Positions 6,293-10,633 of a DNA stretch of 11,445 nt are shown here, piece after piece (position 1 is the stretch's first letter; every line of letters starts with the position of its first letter). Source of the stretch: Candidatus Heimdallarchaeota archaeon (GTDB lineage Archaea; Asgardarchaeota; Heimdallarchaeia; Hodarchaeales; Hodarchaeaceae); the NCBI GenBank assembly GCA_019057635.1, contig DXJL01000080.1, forward strand, positions 1 through 11,445, in the 5' to 3' direction. The notes under the pieces are model-generated. The model was given only the letters and a program-made list of their open reading frames with translations. It searched no databases and had not been told where the DNA came from. The position numbers and the translations under genes were made by a program.

Positions 6293-9200
6293 CTATTTAC
6301 CTGATAACGTCTCCCAGTTTAATTTTTTAACTTCAGTAATCCAAGTTTTATTGACAAATAGGTGCATTTTATACCAAGTGGTTAAGCCAACAATTTCATC
6401 AACACAGGCTAAATCGGGGTTTGTCGTAAGCCATTTATAGGCTTCAGGATACATTTCAGCATACGGTGGTACACCTGTTCCTTTCTCTGAATCCCACCAG
6501 TGTCCCGTATGATTCACTATAACCCAGAAGTGTATATCGGGTAAATGGTTAGTGAAATAGTCATTCACATCAGAAGTTGAATTTGAAGAGAAAGGATAAT
6601 TACCTGTGTCCTTGACTTCGTATTCTAGATAATATCGAAGGGCAAATTGAGTACCTCCCTCATTTATTGCCCATGTACTATAATTATAATCCCCTCCATG
6701 ATTATTTATATAAATAGCCATCTCCTGGTATCGGAGATCGAATATTTGATTGTAATGGACATTAGTAGAGACATTTACTAACATCCCTGACATAGCGAGG
6801 GCAAGAATTATTGTAAGTTGAGGTTTAATCTTTGGTTTCAACCAGTACAACCCAACAATCAACAATATCAGTCCAACGAAAGTAGCTAGGGGAGCTCCAA
6901 ACTCCATCACTTCTCCGATCCATGAAAAATCTAATTTGAATAGCAGGTTTAGGAAATCATGGACTATATAATCGTATAATCGATACAACCCACCCCCTCC
7001 CCTAAACCATGCATCGATAAAGAATTTATATGCAAACCCAGCAGTAATGATTCCAGGAAACGTTTTCAGTACATAAAAGCAAAGAAAAATGAATGGGATT
7101 AGATAAATAGCGGCGACAAAAAGGTTTCTGAACAAAGAATTTAGATTTCCATTAGCCAAAAAAGCGGTGAGGGGAACGTAAACAAATGTAAATCCGATTT
7201 CTAAGAAAAAATATCCTCCAGCTAGCCCTTTTTCAACATTATCAACAGCTAGTAATCGCATTTTCTCATATGAATAGATAAACTCAAAACCTTTGGCTGC
7301 AATAGCAAGATAAGGGAGTACAAGGGGAATATAGTAATAATTCAACTGAAACATTGCGGGGAAGAAAACAAGAGGAATGACAAGTAACCAAGTGATCAGG
7401 GCAGAGCCCAACGCGGGATTACGACGTTCTGAAAAGAAAAATGCCCAGAGTCCAATTAGGAAGAATGGAAGCATGACAACCAATACGTAATCGTTTATTG
7501 CACCCCCTAAACTATCAGCTAAATTATACTTGGTTCCAGAAGTGTAACGCCACCCAATGTAATAATCAAAAAATAAAAAGGTATATGTAACGACATCAGG
7601 CTTATTAGGATCACCAGCAAGCTCTCCTGGGGTCCGTACCTCCCATGGAAAGTTCACAAGATTAGCATCGATATATTGTACCCAGGCAATAAAGGGATAG
7701 AAGCTGAGAATAATGACAATGAGGGTGATTCCAATAAACAGAATATGGGATGAGAAAATTGTTAGTTCTGCTTGAGAACGAATTCTTGCTTTAAGATTGA
7801 AAAATTTTATGAGCTTATTCTTAAGATGTGGATAGTAGGACAGTAAGGGAATTAGTAATAAGGAGATAGCAACACCCATTAACGTTATTGACAAAGCATT
7901 TCGATCAAAAACAAGTCCAAGCAGAAGTAATCCAACAAACCAAAACATCAACCAAATACCCATAATAATTAGGGGAAAACTGTCTATTAACTCGTAAATA
8001 AAACGAATGAAGGCTCTATCGGAGGAAATGAAATCTAATAACAACCCAAATGCAACTAATGCGAGAATAATTGTACCAATCGATCCTAATAATGCTCCGA
8101 TGAGTTCTAATAATGCTAGAACGAAGACCTCGTTGTTAAGTGCCTCTAGATTTTCTAGTGTTCCTTCTGATAGAAAGAATAAAATTCCTTTAATTATGGA
8201 CATATTATTCGAACTTAAAGCAGTTGCAAATTGTTTGAAAGCATCCTCTAATCGATTATAAAAAAGAGATACGATGATATTTCCCGCAAATGCTGCTAAT
8301 ACGCTCGTAATTCCAGTGAAAAATAACACAAGGTAGTTTCCTTCAACGAACTCATTTTTCCAAAACCGAAGAAACACAGTAAAACATGTAGAAGCGCTCA
8401 CGATAGCTATTATTAGACCAGCGACAAGAAGTTGATTGTAAATAACAGTAATAATAAATGAGATGACCAATGCAAGTAAGAATACAAAATACGGGAAAAG
8501 ATTGGCATAGGTTTGTTCTGAGGAAGAAGAATGTTCCTCATTGTCGGAGAAAGAAAGAGAAAATGATTCACGACTCTCATGTAGAGCAATTTTTAATTGA
8601 GAGAAATCAACATGCCGCTCTAAATATCTGAATACCAAATAGATGGCTATGGATGGTGCAATTAATACCCCTTGCCATGCTTTCGTCATGACATTTAGTA
8701 CATTAAGTATTCCTGTTAGTATGATTAATAAATAGCCTTTTTTCAGATTGTTATCAACAAATATCGCATCAATGGCGCGAATTCCTGTTAAAAAAACTAT
8801 AGATCCCATGAAAATAACAAAGGGGTCGATATATGCAGTTCGAGAATAGAAATTTAGAAATGAGGCTAGTGCAACCAGAAGCCCTGCTATAGCATGCGCG
8901 CTCTTAGTTTCTTTTTGATGACTGAACAAGAGGTATATCACTACCGCAAGACCAGCACCACCTATAGCATTCATGCCATTTGCCCCAAAAGTGCTTTTTC
9001 CAAAGATATTCATGAGGAGCGCGCCAAAAATGAAAGCAAAAGGAGGTTTATCAAATAATTGAAGGGTTGTATTATTCCCCCTATAATATAAAGGTAGGAA
9101 AGGATCTGATAACCCGTCAGCTATTCGTGAGGCAATGGAAACAAACCAACCTTCATCCCACATGTCAATAGACGAAGTATAAACTATCTTTAACCAAAAG

Positions 9201-9331
9201 GCTAAAAGACCTACAATCAGTAATAAACGATACCGTACAAAGTAGTCCCATAGTCTTACCGCTATCTTTTCTAACATTTGATTCTTCGTTGATTCTGGGA
9301 TTGGGTTTTGTTCCTCTTCTTGGGCAGTCAT
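6293..9331 (-). CDS. Large polytopic GT-C fold glycosyltransferase (ArnT/PMT-like, GT83/GT39 type)
   Basis: First TM helix followed by WDEGWF (DE motif), then FDKPPFAF, YSRTAYID and MTKAWQG. Many hydrophobic segments, YYYIPLVLP near the last core helices, and a soluble C-terminal domain with several N-x-S/T sequons. Confidence 0.8.
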   Translation of the reverse strand: MTAQEEEQNPIPESTKNQMLEKIAVRLWDYFVRYRLLLIVGLLAFWLKIVYTSSIDMWDEGWFVSIASRIADGLSDPFLPLYYRGNNTTLQLFDKPPFAFIFGALLMNIFGKSTFGANGMNAIGGAGLAVVIYLLFSHQKETKSAHAIAGLLVALASFLNFYSRTAYIDPFVIFMGSIVFLTGIRAIDAIFVDNNLKKGYLLIILTGILNVLNVMTKAWQGVLIAPSIAIYLVFRYLERHVDFSQLKIALHESRESFSLSFSDNEEHSSSSEQTYANLFPYFVFLLALVISFIITVIYNQLLVAGLIIAIVSASTCFTVFLRFWKNEFVEGNYLVLFFTGITSVLAAFAGNIIVSLFYNRLEDAFKQFATALSSNNMSIIKGILFFLSEGTLENLEALNNEVFVLALLELIGALLGSIGTIILALVAFGLLLDFISSDRAFIRFIYELIDSFPLIIMGIWLMFWFVGLLLLGLVFDRNALSITLMGVAISLLLIPLLSYYPHLKNKLIKFFNLKARIRSQAELTIFSSHILFIGITLIVIILSFYPFIAWVQYIDANLVNFPWEVRTPGELAGDPNKPDVVTYTFLFFDYYIGWRYTSGTKYNLADSLGGAINDYVLVVMLPFFLIGLWAFFFSERRNPALGSALITWLLVIPLVFFPAMFQLNYYYIPLVLPYLAIAAKGFEFIYSYEKMRLLAVDNVEKGLAGGYFFLEIGFTFVYVPLTAFLANGNLNSLFRNLFVAAIYLIPFIFLCFYVLKTFPGIITAGFAYKFFIDAWFRGGGGLYRLYDYIVHDFLNLLFKLDFSWIGEVMEFGAPLATFVGLILLIVGLYWLKPKIKPQLTIILALAMSGMLVNVSTNVHYNQIFDLRYQEMAIYINNHGGDYNYSTWAINEGGTQFALRYYLEYEVKDTGNYPFSSNSTSDVNDYFTNHLPDIHFWVIVNHTGHWWDSEKGTGVPPYAEMYPEAYKWLTTNPDLACVDEIVGLTTWYKMHLFVNKTWITEVKKLNWETLSGK

Positions 9332-9336
9332 GACTA

Positions 9337-9376
9337 TCCACCCATCTGTTCAGTGCATTCATTTAAGTTAGTTTTG
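9337..9376 (-). promoter_or_regulatory. Putative BRE/TATA and SD of the glycosyltransferase-leuA-like-ppiC unit
   Basis: Minus strand reads CAAAACTAACTTAAAT, followed by GGGTGG a few nt before the ATG at 9331. Confidence 0.4.
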
Positions 9377-9649
9377 CCCTCAATCTGTTATGGATTCCTA
9401 AGTAGTAAAGAGGCATAAAGAACTTTCTTAAGGGGTGATACTTTGTTATTCGGTTGTCCGTTGATGTGAGAGATAAAGTAAACGAGTCTACTTATTATGA
9501 ATACGTTCCAATTAGAACAAGTAGAAGAGATGATAGACCAAGCTAACTATAGCGATGCTCTGAACGAACTAGAAAGGTATGAAGAATCAAACCAGCTAAC
9601 CGATGAAGAACTGCTGACCAAAATTATATCCATTGAGGAAGAATCCATG

Positions 9650-9667
9650 ACTAAATTTGTCAGACAA
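9650..9667 (+). repeat. Left terminal inverted repeat
   Basis: ACTAAATTTGTCAGACAA, which contains the palindrome TTGTC-A-GACAA. Confidence 0.88.
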
Positions 9668-9913
9668 CGCAGTAAAACCGCGTTCTGGACAGGATGAGTC
9701 ACACATCCGCTATCCGGAAAAAACCAATTCAGTTGATGAATTCGTTTTCGAGGGACTACTTGTTACAATCGGGTTGGCATTCTCGCTTGATTCCTCGAAT
9801 TTCAAAAACCACTGGCCTTACCCCCTCGCCCTTGACGGGTAACTCGTCTAACGTAGTTACGAGGGAGGTATTCCAGTAACATTGCGATCTATTCTTTTCA
9901 TCACCTCCGATTT
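9666..9913 (-). ncRNA. Candidate structured non-coding RNA inside the element (strand uncertain)
   Basis: Five consecutive paired domains from 9666 to 9877, including a three-way junction at 9811..9877. About 48% GC by my count over 9661..9880. A BRE-TATA at 9950..9937 points into it. G.U/mismatch patterns do not fix the strand. Confidence 0.5.
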
Positions 9914-9936
9914 ATAAGGATTTGAGGGGGGGAGGC

Positions 9937-9950
9937 CTTTTAAGGGTTTC
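9937..9950 (-). promoter_or_regulatory. Archaeal BRE-TATA promoter inside the element
   Basis: Minus strand GAAACC-CTTAAAAG. The predicted start near 9913 is followed by GGAGGTGA (9908..9901). Confidence 0.55.
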
Positions 9951-9983
9951 AGAGAGAGAGTGAGGTGAAAATGAACATGTAAT

Positions 9984-10001
9984 TTGTCTGACAAATTTGA
10001 T
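9984..10001 (-). repeat. Right terminal inverted repeat
   Basis: TTGTCTGACAAATTTGAT, overlapping the perfect palindrome AATTTGTC-T-GACAAATT (9981..9997). Confidence 0.88.
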
Positions 10002-10222
10002 CATGCTAAAGCTATTTCGAACTTGGGAGAAAATTCTGGATCAGAAACTTTCTATAGGCGAAATAATAAAAATTTCGCGAGTAGAAGACTTAATCAATGG
10101 GGTTATTCGAAATAAAGCATATCAAAATGAAGAAGAGGTCATCGCTTATGCTGATAAAGCTCTTCAGATTGCGAAAGCATGGAAAGCTTAATAACCGCTA
10201 ATAGTTCGTAGGTGGTTTTAAA

Positions 10223-10633
10223 TTGTCGTTTTGGGTTTATATGTTACTCGTAGGAAAAAAATCCAGTGGGTATAATAGGAAAATCTACACGGGGTATACT
10301 CATCATCTGATGAATCGACTTACACAGCACATTGGCTTAAATAGTGTAAAAGGTGCACGTATAACTCGTAAACAACCAATTGAGTTAGTCTATTTAGAAA
10401 AATTTTCTTCTCGTAAACTAGCTCTGAAGCGTGAGTGGGATTTCAAAAATACGAGTCCGTTAAATCAAAAACCGAATAAATTAAGTCTAATTAAAGAGTT
10501 CCAAACAAAGAATGCTGATATTTTAAAGGATTTAAATGCGATATTTGAGGAGCACAATCAATTTCTTGAAACTTTGACAAATGAAATTAAAAAAATTGAA
10601 AAGGAATTTGAGAGACGATTTACACCAAAATAG
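10223..10633 (+). CDS. GIY-YIG nuclease superfamily protein (UPF0213-like) with C-terminal coiled-coil tail
   Basis: WVYML...IYTGYT...NRLTQH...GARITR..PIELVYLE...ALKRE motifs. TTG start preceded by AGGTGG. Confidence 0.85.
   Translation: MSFWVYMLLVGKKSSGYNRKIYTGYTHHLMNRLTQHIGLNSVKGARITRKQPIELVYLEKFSSRKLALKREWDFKNTSPLNQKPNKLSLIKEFQTKNADILKDLNAIFEEHNQFLETLTNEIKKIEKEFERRFTPK

What the first reader, a model, noticed from the sequence alone, without database searches (positions are those of the whole stretch)
9646..10005. Transposase-less 352-bp element with palindromic TIRs inserted at CATG, cleanly splitting a gene
Seen: 18-bp inverted repeats (15-bp perfect core AAATTTGTCAGACAA), CATG on both flanks, and restoration of a continuous 112-aa frame when the insert and one CATG are removed. 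Each TIR contains its own dyad, TTGTC-N-GACAA, extended to a perfect 8-1-8 palindrome at the right end. Because CATG is palindromic, the duplication could be 4 bp (CATG) or 2 bp (AT) with longer TIRs, or it could be a recombination core. Established: MITEs are mobilised in trans, and IS110/IS1111 elements use a short core with sub-terminal IRs and an element-encoded guide RNA. I cannot assign a family. Inference: a recent insertion of a possibly undescribed archaeal non-autonomous element. An invertible promoter cassette is a less likely alternative.
Basis: partly seen in the sequence, partly recalled or inferred. Interest (0 to 1): 0.82.

Follow-up and report, generated by a model that had tools for sequence, protein, structure and literature searches.

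The report
Miniature TnpB transposon with guide-RNA module
A 352-base mobile element that lost its nuclease gene but kept both ends and a folded, guide-RNA-like module sits in a decayed gene of an Asgard archaeon; it is a known general kind, but its mirror-image ends and missing transposase are unusual.

Summary
The element has 22-nt inverted ends (20/22), CATG on both flanks and a 352-bp body at 9650-10001. It is one of dozens of copies in this genome. A congener genome (G002) has the same site empty, with a single CATG.

The family can be assigned. The insert is a miniature, non-coding derivative of a 1.42-kb insertion sequence that encodes only TnpB (IS1341 type). It keeps both tips, a promoter-like block next to the left end (LE), and about 115 nt next to the right end (RE). 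That RE-proximal stretch folds into a covarying, strand-specific structure shared with the full-length elements. I read this stretch as the omega-RNA scaffold; that reading is an inference.

At least four TnpB copies in the genome are intact and under purifying selection (dN/dS 0.06-0.14).

Three features are unusual for the kind:
- The ends are true terminal inverted repeats (TIRs), and the target is a palindromic CATG.
- T is never seen just outside the LE-side CATG (0 of 45).
- No matching transposase was found, although G002 holds 98-100% identical copies at five loci.

The "112-aa gene" is an internally deleted relic of a 605-aa TPR gene.

Verdict: a new variant of a known kind, of moderate interest.

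The parts
9646..9649 (.). CATG on the RE side of the element (flank or duplicated target)
   Evidence: All 12 full-length copies listed begin with CATG on this side. Loose ends of metagenome contigs start exactly at 9646 in X2, X3 and X4.
9650..9667 (-). Right-end (RE) terminal inverted repeat. It includes the palindrome TTGTC-N-GACAA at 9657-9667 (helix H4).
   Evidence: In the full-length elements this tip lies 13 nt beyond the tnpB stop.
9646..9763 (-). Omega-RNA-like structured module, read on the minus strand. It starts with the conserved CAAGTAGTCCC and holds H1 (9720-9748), H2 (9692-9708), H3 (9668-9682) and H4 (9657-9667).
   Evidence: Alignment A1 of 45 distinct sequences. Covariation test. 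Fold z-score -3.96 on the minus strand against -1.93 on the plus strand. Coordinates. Model R1 scores this copy best (147 bits).
9626..9645 (-). Predicted guide-equivalent flank (inference only). If the module is an omega RNA that reads out of the RE, this is the sequence it would carry as guide.
   Evidence: Geometry only. An RNA-library contig covers 9460-9690 across this junction, but its strand is unknown.
9809..9883 (-). Remnant of the tnpB coding region. It matches about 736-824 of the full-length element, the start of the OrfB_IS605 domain.
   Evidence: nhmmer; blastn (window 9813-9864 matches C72:32499-32551 at 83%); Pfam domain span.
9936..9975 (-). Block conserved with the region upstream of tnpB in full-length elements. 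It holds a TATA-like CTTAAAAGG at 9936-9944 and is a putative promoter (inference).
   Evidence: Alignment of LE-proximal parts of 14 miniature and 5 full-length copies; coordinates.
9984..10001 (-). Left-end (LE) terminal inverted repeat with the extended palindrome at 9981-9997
10002..10005 (.). CATG on the LE side
   Evidence: A DNA contig of run X2 covers 9900-10252 without a difference.
9497..9649 (+). N-terminal piece of the host relic gene (51 aa)
   Evidence: Residues 1-41 are 71% identical to residues 1-41 of the 605-aa TPR protein of G002, and residues 40-51 match its residues 533-544.
10003..10191 (+). C-terminal piece of the host relic gene (62 aa plus stop)
   Evidence: 87% identical to residues 544-605 of the G002 protein.
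9587..9614 (+). Site of the roughly 1.48-kb internal deletion of the host TPR gene relative to G002
   Evidence: blastn: window 9200-9587 matches G002:C11:79131-79518 and window 9614-9649 matches 81024-81059.

Best explanation
Window 9650-10001 is a non-autonomous miniature copy of a 1.42-kb insertion sequence family of Heimdall/Hod-group Asgard archaea. The only gene of that family is tnpB (IS1341 type).

Shown:
- The miniature element shares three parts with the full-length elements: both 22-nt inverted tips, about 70 nt next to the left end, and the last ~118 nt next to the right end.
- It inserted at a CATG. The same site in a congener is empty and has one CATG.
- The last ~115 nt (minus strand, 9646-9763) form a conserved, covarying, strand-specific stem-loop structure. 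In the full-length elements this structure overlaps the 3' end of tnpB.

Inferred:
- This module is the omega-RNA scaffold.
- It is transcribed from the retained promoter-like block toward 9646 and out into the flank, so the flank serves as its guide.
- It is used in trans by TnpB from one of the intact copies to cut CATG-adjacent empty alleles and so restore or retain the copy. This homing role has been shown for IS605-family TnpB.
- The complete lack of T just outside the LE-side CATG, where the element's own RE reads T-CATG, would then be the mark of a TAM of the form V-CATG that spares occupied sites.

Not identified:
- The enzyme that moves the DNA. The outermost base of each CATG behaves as target DNA, so the duplication or crossover is most likely the central AT, or nothing with TG...CA element ends, rather than four bases.
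For: Copies: 49 matches in the own genome, 7 full length at 85-100% and 5 at 67-69%. All 12 full-length copies have unrelated flanks beyond CATG or near-CATG.

Full-length relatives: they are bounded by the same tips and encode 425-431-aa proteins with Cas12f1-like_TNB (1.2e-23) and OrfB_IS605 (7.8e-18). These proteins match solved TnpB and Cas12f chains.

TnpB state: of 7 near-full-length copies, 4 are open. dN/dS is 0.06-0.14 in all 6 pairs.

Shared parts: three patches are shared between miniature and full-length elements.

Empty sites with one CATG:
- The window's site in G002:C11.
- Two reciprocal cases where G002 is occupied and G000 is empty.

Structure, on 45 distinct sequences:
- 89.1% of cells pair, against 74.0% when shuffled (0/500 shuffles as high).
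- 190 double-change cells, against 79 +/- 9 (0/500).
- Covariation score 0.393, against 0.157 shuffled and 0.07-0.17 for slid partners.
- G-U pairs occur on the tnpB-sense strand.
- The minus-strand fold has z = -3.96 and the plus-strand fold z = -1.93.

Flanks:
- The base outside the LE-side CATG is A 24, C 15, G 6, T 0 of 45.
- On the RE side, reading inward, it is T in 22 of 39 (Fisher p = 5e-10).

Outermost CATG base: it varies in 11 of 77 termini, against 5 of 231 cells for the other three bases. It is discordant between the two sides in 3 old copies and in one young G002 copy.

Recent activity: five G002 copies at five loci are 98-100% identical.

Literature: Meers et al. preprint PMC10055086 (passages read) reports PATE-like elements that often encode omega RNAs used in trans.
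Against: No direct RNA evidence:
- Rfam gives no match.
- The single RNA-library contig (X19, 9460-9690) crosses the RE junction, but its strand is unknown. It could equally be the relic gene's mRNA running into the element, or DNA carried over in the library.

Limits of the structure test:
- Helices H2 and H4 are invariant, so they say nothing for or against the fold.
- RNAalifold prefers a different pairing of those invariant parts.
- The 45 sequences are related, which inflates the shuffle test.
- Covarying hairpins could be read as DNA by a transposase rather than as RNA.

Other points:
- True inverted tips are not expected for IS200/IS605-type elements.
- The TAM reading of the flank bias is untested and could be a target preference of the unknown enzyme.
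- 20 of the 45 LE flanks were taken from 20 of 29 LE-type termini that I picked from the G002 list. Some sites are orthologous between genomes.
- No transposase partner was found.
Confidence: 0.75

Rival explanations
1. Ordinary MITE of a DDE cut-and-paste transposon. An unseen DDE transposase binds the 22-nt inverted tips and makes a 2-bp (AT) or 4-bp (CATG) target duplication. The conserved RE-proximal module is a protein-binding or DNA-level signal, and TnpB is only cargo.
For: True inverted tips. CATG on both flanks and a single CATG in empty sites. Altae-Tran et al. [quoted passage not shown] DDE_Tnp_1 and rve genes exist in G000 and G002.
Against: - No element bounded by these tips carries anything but tnpB, neither in G000 nor among the G002 termini listed, in which 26 matches were not listed.
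- IS630-type DDE_3 is absent from G000, G002, G020, G018 and G004, the five genomes richest in the element.
- The inverted repeats of the 6 DDE_Tnp_1/rve loci examined are unrelated to these tips.
- A symmetric enzyme does not explain the asymmetric flank bias.
- Covariation with G-U pairs on one strand fits an RNA better than a protein site.
Confidence: 0.3
2. A true PATE. The element moves by single-strand 'peel and paste' through a Y1 HUH TnpA supplied in trans. CATG (or V-CATG) is the target motif left of LE, and a second CATG is the last four bases of RE, so there is no real duplication.
For: - Context is TnpB-only.
- Subterminal palindromes lie at both ends.
- Empty sites are scarless.
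- The target bias is specific to one orientation.
- 33-bp 'terminal-only' fusions across the palindrome occur in G002, like the core deletions described for haloarchaeal PATEs (PMC3119063, passages read).
Against: - Y1_Tnp was not found in G000, G002 or G020. It was found only in 2 of 22 genomes of the genus, next to an unrelated TnpB and without these palindromes.
- The 11 nt outside the palindromes are also inverted repeats, and both palindromes sit equally far from the tips. In the PATE description the ends are asymmetric and lack ITRs.
- The outermost base varies on the RE side too.
Confidence: 0.2
3. The element is moved by a serine recombinase of the IS607 kind, which crosses over at the central AT of CATG. 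It excises as a circle and reinserts at another AT within CATG.
For: - The closest paralogous TnpB in the genome (40% identity) sits next to an IS607-type serine recombinase.
- A 2-bp core fits the behaviour of the outermost base.
- Among 69 related loci, one has a serine recombinase upstream.
Against: - The ends of that IS607-like element are unrelated.
- G002, which has the youngest copies, has only a classical resolvase next to a reverse-transcriptase-like ORF.
- G020 and G004 have no resolvase match.
- IS607 elements are described as lacking inverted repeats (recalled, not read here).
Confidence: 0.12
4. Invertible promoter cassette or site-specific recombination switch at this locus.
For: Inverted repeats flank a short segment that holds a promoter-like block.
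Against: - Dozens of copies lie at unrelated loci.
- A congener has an empty allele.
- The ends are shared with TnpB elements.
- No inverted-orientation contig or joint was seen in the 4 runs laid.
Confidence: 0.01

Closest known systems
PATEs (palindrome-associated transposable elements) of Haloquadratum and Geobacillus, non-coding derivatives of IS200/IS605-type TnpB elements
   Same: - Too short to code.
- Derived from TnpB elements by internal deletion.
- Near-terminal palindromes and a short target motif.
- Scarless empty sites and terminal-only mini versions.
- Often carry an omega RNA used in trans.
   Different: In this element the tips beyond the palindromes are true inverted repeats of equal length. 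CATG stands on both flanks, and no Y1 TnpA is present in the genomes that hold the element. PATEs are defined as lacking ITRs.
IS1341-type (TnpB-only) members of the IS200/IS605 family
   Same: The full-length relatives carry tnpB alone. The structured module overlaps the 3' end of tnpB at the RE, and copies within one genome are strongly diverged (dS 0.75-3.3).
   Different: The ends are symmetric with a palindromic CATG target. The TnpB has G where Cas12f 9nzq has the RuvC-II glutamate (alignment). This resembles the 'RIIr' rearranged clades of Altae-Tran 2023. Membership of a named clade was not tested.
DDE (IS630)-associated TnpB elements with symmetrical ends (Altae-Tran et al. 2023, PMC10691335)
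   Same: TnpB lies inside an element with inverted terminal repeats. Solo TnpB copies share ends with transposase-bearing ones.
   Different: No DDE_3 gene occurs in the five genomes richest in the element. The target is CATG, not TA.
IS630, target CTAG with duplication of the central TA (recalled from memory, not read here)
   Same: A palindromic tetranucleotide target of which only the central dinucleotide seems to be duplicated.
   Different: Different tetranucleotide, no such transposase seen, and the resemblance is only formal.
IS607 family (serine recombinase TnpA plus TnpB)
   Same: The nearest TnpB paralogue in the genome belongs to such an element. A 2-bp crossover would fit.
   Different: This family has no adjacent serine recombinase, its ends are unrelated, and it has inverted tips.

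Membership tests
Non-autonomous derivative of a TnpB-only (IS1341-type) element | Longer relatives with the same ends encode TnpB (OrfB_IS605 plus zinc-ribbon/TNB domains) | tested here: met
   The same holds in named Heimdall/Hod records L033-L043.
Non-autonomous derivative of a TnpB-only (IS1341-type) element | No intact coding capacity of its own | tested here: met
   The ORFs inside 9650-10001 are 45-61 aa and have no Pfam family at E<=0.001. The one hit reported under the 0.1 cut-off used was RNA_polI_A14 at E 0.056. Only a 75-nt tnpB remnant is left.
Non-autonomous derivative of a TnpB-only (IS1341-type) element | Structured RNA module at the RE that overlaps the 3' end of tnpB (omega RNA) | tested here: inconclusive
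   Conserved, covarying, strand-specific structure. There is no Rfam match and no strand-resolved RNA evidence.
IS200/IS605 family in the strict sense / PATE | Asymmetric ends without terminal inverted repeats | tested here: not met
   22-nt inverted tips, 20/22. They are conserved across copies and genomes.
IS200/IS605 family in the strict sense / PATE | Subterminal palindromes able to form hairpins at both ends | tested here: met
   TTGTC-N-GACAA at 9657-9667 and 9984-9994.
IS200/IS605 family in the strict sense / PATE | Y1 HUH TnpA available in the genome | tested here: not met
   PF01797 gives 0 matches in G000 (91.6% complete), G002 and G020. It matches only 2 of 22 genomes of the genus, in unrelated elements.
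IS200/IS605 family in the strict sense / PATE | Insertion next to a short motif on the LE side, without target duplication | tested here: inconclusive
   Empty sites have one CATG. The sequences cannot separate a duplication of 0, 2 or 4 bp. The flank bias is specific to one orientation.
Classical MITE | Terminal inverted repeats shared with an autonomous transposase-encoding element | tested here: not met
   The tips are shared only with TnpB-only elements. No transposase gene was found between such tips.
IS607 family | Serine recombinase TnpA adjacent to tnpB, ends without inverted repeats | tested here: not met
   The two resolvase genes of G000 sit beside other TnpB families with unrelated ends.
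IS110/IS1111 (bridge-RNA elements) | DEDD transposase in the genome | tested here: not met
   PF01548 gives 0 matches in G000 and G002 and 1 in G020. The targets share only CATG.
Asgard Cas1-associated TnpB transposons (Altae-Tran 2023) | Cas1 homologue next to tnpB | tested here: not met
   PF01867 gives 0 matches in G000. The full-length elements hold tnpB only. A very divergent Cas1 could escape this profile.

The most novel reading that the evidence does not exclude
This genus-restricted TnpB family transposes without any of the transposases known to move TnpB elements (Y1, IS607 serine, IS630 DDE, Cas1). Very young copies exist in a genome (G002) where none of the three searched there was found (Y1, IS607-type serine recombinase, IS630 DDE); Cas1 was searched only in G000. 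So either an undescribed enzyme recognises palindrome-bearing inverted tips and a CATG core, or the TnpB-omega ribonucleoprotein itself takes part in integration. The V-CATG rule on one flank would mark a TAM-guarded, self-sparing homing cycle, in which a miniature copy is a free-standing guide-RNA gene.
Probability: 0.12. Interest if true: 0.85.

Novelty: new variant of a known kind. Interest (0 to 1): 0.5.

Why it matters
TnpB is the ancestor of Cas12 and a compact genome-editing nuclease. How TnpB-only elements move, and how their guide RNAs are used, is still partly open.

This family offers a clean natural data set in the archaeal group closest to eukaryotes:
- Full-length copies under purifying selection.
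- Miniature copies that keep only the ends, a promoter-like block and the structured RNA module.
- Terminal-only stubs.
- Empty sites in a sister genome.
- A sharp, testable flank rule (never T before the LE-side CATG, where the element's own end reads T-CATG).
- Very young copies in a genome with no recognisable partner transposase.

It gives a concrete candidate for a CATG-type TAM nuclease, and a test case for trans use of omega RNAs by miniature elements.

For annotation, the '112-aa split gene' should be read as a pseudogene relic, and the repeat family explains many contig breaks in these MAGs.

Tried and rejected
RNA families: Rfam at E<=1 gave no match on window 9300-10400 or on a full-length element.

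Organism: an archaeal SSU rRNA search of the MAG found nothing, so the organism was inferred from named relatives.

Partner transposase, none convincing:
- Y1, Cas1 (29), IS630 DDE_3 (63), resolvase (15, 64, 95), IS110 DEDD (102).
- DDE_Tnp_1 and rve are present, but the inverted repeats of the 6 loci looked at are unrelated (89, 90, 91, 96).
- Orphan termini in G000 (C160, C179:16040 and others) and the 2.6-kb pair in G002:C8 enclose ordinary host genes, not a transposase.
- A self-comparison of the genome found no repeated DDE element.

Collection scans with the exact tip pattern: 3 metagenome contigs, none with a transposase in the one contig that had room, and 0 viral contigs.

Circle or tandem junction and empty-site strings, built inside a script from the window: 0 hits in the assembly.

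Reads:
- No contig skips 9650-10001 in X2, X3, X4 or X19.
- The RNA run has no cover on 9707-10005.
- The joints 9715>9828 and 9717>9820 in X3 are best read as other subfamily copies.

Of the 8 G002 copies compared with G000:
- 2 gave clean empty sites (L113, L117; the L117 region also holds about 480 bp of extra sequence).
- 2 are shared orthologous insertions (L114, L119).
- 1 is a ~45-bp remnant in G000 (L115).
- 1 has degenerate ends and no CATG at the G000 site (L116).
- 1 matched on one flank only (L118).
- 1 lies in a repeat cluster (L120).

Distant TnpB relatives (27-35% identity): of 69 loci, 1 has a serine recombinase and 3 have Y1-like ORFs within 1.5 kb, so phylogenetic neighbours do not settle the enzyme.

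Literature: searches found no paper in the held library describing a CATG-targeting, TIR-bounded TnpB family in Asgard archaea. Supplementary files were not read. These include the transposon-end files of PMC10691335 and Table S9 of PMC3119063, and they may hold similar ends.
Full report
1. THE OBSERVATION

The inverted arms are 9646-9667 and 9984-10005 (22 nt, 20/22). CATG stands at both outer ends and the body is 352 bp. The right arm is part of a perfect 8-1-8 palindrome at 9981-9997.

The reading frame holds too. 9497-9649 reads as 51 aa, and 10003-10188 reads as 62 aa beginning with the ATG of the right CATG. Removing the insert and one CATG therefore gives one 112-aa frame.

This is not chance. 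The terminus pattern with up to 2 mismatches occurs 62 times in the window's genome. The backwards control occurs 0 times in all 22 genomes of the genus.

2. A MULTI-COPY MOBILE ELEMENT WITH AN EMPTY SITE IN A SISTER GENOME

The 360-nt stretch has 49 matches in its own genome (3.19 Mb, 214 contigs, 91.6% complete). Seven are full length at 85-100% and five at 67-69%. Many more match only the first 72 nt. All 12 full-length copies are bounded by CATG or a one-base variant, and their flanks are unrelated.

In the closest congener, G002, the flanks of the window's copy abut with a single CATG. The reverse comparison examined 8 G002 copies:
- Two have clean empty CATG sites in G000.
- Two are shared, orthologous insertions.
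- One corresponds to a short remnant in G000.
- Three are unclear.

The family is also young in places. Five G002 copies at five different loci are 98-100% identical, and another three are 96-98% identical.

An independent sediment metagenome (X2) has a contig identical over 9900-10252, so this very insertion exists outside the assembly. In three metagenomes, contigs of other copies lose similarity exactly at 9646.

3. THE FAMILY

Some copies share only the two ends and are 1.34-1.42 kb long: C72:31895-33318, C133:54326-55746, C69:5445-6856, C179:5846-7268 and C67:28206-29541 (C152 ~25890-27314 has a degenerate LE tip). Their single ORF lies on the strand opposite to the window's orientation. 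It is a TnpB, with Cas12f1-like_TNB at 1.2e-23 and OrfB_IS605 at 7.8e-18. It also matches solved TnpB and Cas12f chains, among them ISDra2 TnpB at 5.9e-10.

The tnpB stop lies 13 nt from the tip CATGACTAAATTTGTCAGACAA, so that tip is the right end (RE). In the window it is the left side. The other tip is the left end (LE).

Of seven near-full-length tnpB copies in the genome:
- Four are open.
- Two have two stops each.
- One is truncated.

The four open ones differ by dS 0.75-3.3 with dN/dS 0.06-0.14 in all six pairs. The protein has therefore been kept functional over a long time.

In the alignment to Cas12f 9nzq, the RuvC-II glutamate is matched by glycine, and the RuvC-III motif reads NADYN. 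This resembles the 'rearranged RuvC-II' clades described by Altae-Tran et al. 2023 (PMC10691335; passages read). I did not test membership of a named clade.

The same element with the same tips occurs in records titled Candidatus Heimdallarchaeota archaeon B3_Heim (up to 95% aa identity) and in Hodarchaeota MAGs (69-80%). From this I infer that the window comes from an Asgard archaeon of that group.

4. WHAT THE MINIATURE COPY KEEPS

Read in tnpB sense, a profile of 14 miniature copies matches the full-length elements in three patches:
- Positions 1-70 match 1-115: the LE and the region upstream of tnpB.
- Positions 123-197 match about 736-824: the start of the OrfB_IS605 domain.
- Positions 244-361 match 1305-1424: the last ~118 nt.

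The LE-proximal patch holds a block conserved in all subfamilies and in the full-length elements, ending in CTTA(A/T)AAG. In the full-length elements this sits about 25 nt before the tnpB start. I read it as the promoter. That is an inference.

5. THE RE-PROXIMAL MODULE

I aligned the last 132 nt of 45 distinct copies, miniature and full length, from G000, G002 and the named Heimdall/Hod records. A nearly invariant core is flanked by two hairpins whose sequences differ between subfamilies while the pairing is kept.

On a structure that I specified (H1, H2, H3, H4), one search gave:
- 89.1% of 1071 cells pair, against 74.0% when shuffled (0 of 500 shuffles as high).
- 14 of 24 pairs show changes on both sides.
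- 190 cells have double changes, against 79 +/- 9 (0 of 500).
- The covariation score is 0.393, against 0.157 shuffled and 0.07-0.17 when the partners are slid by 1-3 columns.

All covariation lies in H1 and H3. H2 and H4 (the terminal palindrome) never vary, so they are uninformative. RNAalifold prefers to pair those invariant parts differently. The sequences are related, so the shuffle test overstates the case; the slid controls are the fairer comparison.

G-U pairs occur on the tnpB-sense strand. The window's copy folds with z = -3.96 on the minus strand and z = -1.93 on the plus strand.

A covariance model of the module finds it in 9 of the 22 genomes of the genus and in 0 of 61 other genomes of the class. 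The window's copy is the best hit.

A structured, strand-specific module that overlaps the 3' end of tnpB and abuts the RE is what an omega RNA looks like. Non-coding derivatives that carry omega RNAs for use in trans are described by Meers et al. (PMC10055086; passages read).

Direct evidence is lacking. Rfam has no match. The one RNA-library contig (X19, 231 nt, 9460-9690) crosses the RE junction but carries no strand information. It may equally be the relic gene's transcript, or DNA in the library.

6. TARGET AND ENDS

Empty sites have one CATG, and sequence alone cannot tell a duplication of 4, 2 or 0 bases apart. Two observations bear on the question.

First, the outermost base of CATG varies in 11 of 77 termini (mostly T). 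The other three bases vary in 5 of 231 cells. In three old full-length copies, and in one copy of the 98-100% young G002 group, the two sides disagree at that base. This argues against a 4-bp duplication. It fits either a central AT duplication or crossover, or TG...CA element ends inserted between CA and TG.

Second, the flanks are asymmetric. Just outside the LE-side CATG the base is A 24, C 15, G 6, T 0 of 45 de-duplicated sites. These are 25 from G000 plus 20 from G002; the G002 ones were picked from 29 listed LE-type termini. On the RE side, reading inward, T is the commonest base (22 of 39). Fisher p = 5e-10.

An enzyme that reads two identical tips should give a symmetric preference. 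The element's own RE ends in T-CATG. If TnpB uses V-CATG as its TAM, it would cut empty sites but spare occupied ones, and insertions behind T-CATG would not be protected by homing. This would explain the bias, but it is untested.

7. THE MISSING TRANSPOSASE

Between tips of this kind I found only tnpB, non-coding DNA or host genes. The searches gave:
- Y1 TnpA: absent from G000, G002 and G020. Present only in 2 of 22 genomes of the genus, beside an unrelated TnpB.
- Cas1: not found in G000.
- IS630-type DDE: absent from the five element-rich genomes.
- IS110 DEDD: absent from G000 and G002.
- Serine recombinases: the two in G000 belong to other TnpB families with unrelated ends. G002 has only a classical resolvase.
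- DDE_Tnp_1 and rve elements: present, but the inverted repeats of the six loci examined are unrelated.
- Exact-pattern scans of the metagenome and viral collections added nothing.

All genomes here are incomplete MAGs, so absence is not proven.

Altae-Tran et al. report inverted terminal repeats for DDE-associated TnpBs, and solo TnpBs that share ends with transposase-bearing elements (section 9 read). A DDE partner therefore remains the most conventional guess. PATEs as defined in Haloquadratum lack ITRs, so strict membership there fails on a tested feature.

8. THE HOST GENE

In G002 the orthologous gene encodes a 605-aa TPR protein (TPR_12 at 3e-27). The window keeps residues 1-41 and 533-605. 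About 1.48 kb is missing between 9587 and 9614. The element sits at the codon for M544. The order of the deletion and the insertion is unknown.

9. VERDICT

The element belongs to a known general kind: a miniature derivative of a TnpB-only insertion sequence that carries the guide-RNA module.

The family departs from that kind in four ways:
- It has true inverted tips with a palindromic CATG target.
- It shows a strict one-sided flank rule.
- It is restricted to one genus in the genomes sampled.
- It has no recognisable partner transposase, although very young copies exist.

I rate it a new variant of a known kind, with interest 0.5.

Noticed in passing
G000:C82:48180-48652, C150:25323-25795, C75:8509-8981, C137:1603-2076 and others: A second, unrelated miniature family of about 475 bp, with at least 17 copies or fragments at 90-97% identity. 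Its two ends match the ends of another 1.66-kb TnpB family (C152:3625-5286, C139:3638-5298, C104:14209-15871). TnpB-derived miniature elements are therefore a general habit of this genome.
   Followed up: partly
L183-L185 (G002:C8:64499-64531, C35:1462-1494, C50:11147-11179) and L182 (G002:C57:96043-96188): 33-bp 'terminal-only' elements in which LE and RE are fused across the shared palindrome, plus a 146-bp mini copy. They resemble the repeat-mediated core deletions described for haloarchaeal PATEs.
   Followed up: partly
L173-L177 (G002, five loci): Five copies of the 'B' subfamily are 98-100% identical, each with different flanks. This points to very recent transposition in a genome where no Y1, IS607-type or IS630-type transposase was found.
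   Followed up: yes
window 9497-10191 and L112:629-2446: The interrupted ORF is an internally deleted relic of a 605-aa TPR gene that is intact in G002. In G020 the matches stop at window 9386 and resume at 10168, about 33 bp apart there.
   Followed up: yes
G000:C22:23762-24660: One miniature copy is itself cut by an IS with a DDE_Tnp_1-like ORF at the contig end.
   Followed up: partly
G000:C54:5735-7600: An IS607-like element: a serine recombinase with an N-terminal HTH, plus a TnpB 40% identical to the CATG family. It lies 4 kb from a miniature copy at C54:1183-1542. A TnpB-only version is at C163:2504-3760.
   Followed up: partly
L044:1373-2741: A TnpB-only relative (35% identity) in an Altiarchaeum record has its own 19-nt inverted tips, TGAGTG...CACTCA. 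Inverted ends may therefore be wider in this TnpB clade.
   Followed up: no
window 6293-9331 (-): A 1012-aa ORF with no Pfam family at E<=0.001 lies directly upstream of the relic gene.
   Followed up: no
window 10223-10633 (+): A GIY-YIG domain protein gene lies just downstream of the relic gene and is conserved in G002.
   Followed up: no
L132 (G002:C2:5532-7731): The only resolvase of G002 lies tail to tail with a 416-aa ORF that looks like a reverse transcriptase by eye. The ORF was not scanned.
   Followed up: no
window 9670-9706 and 9818-9854: In three sediment or cold-seep metagenomes the summed contig depth peaks on the invariant core of the module and on the tnpB-remnant patch. These two pieces are the most repeated parts in those communities.
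   Followed up: no
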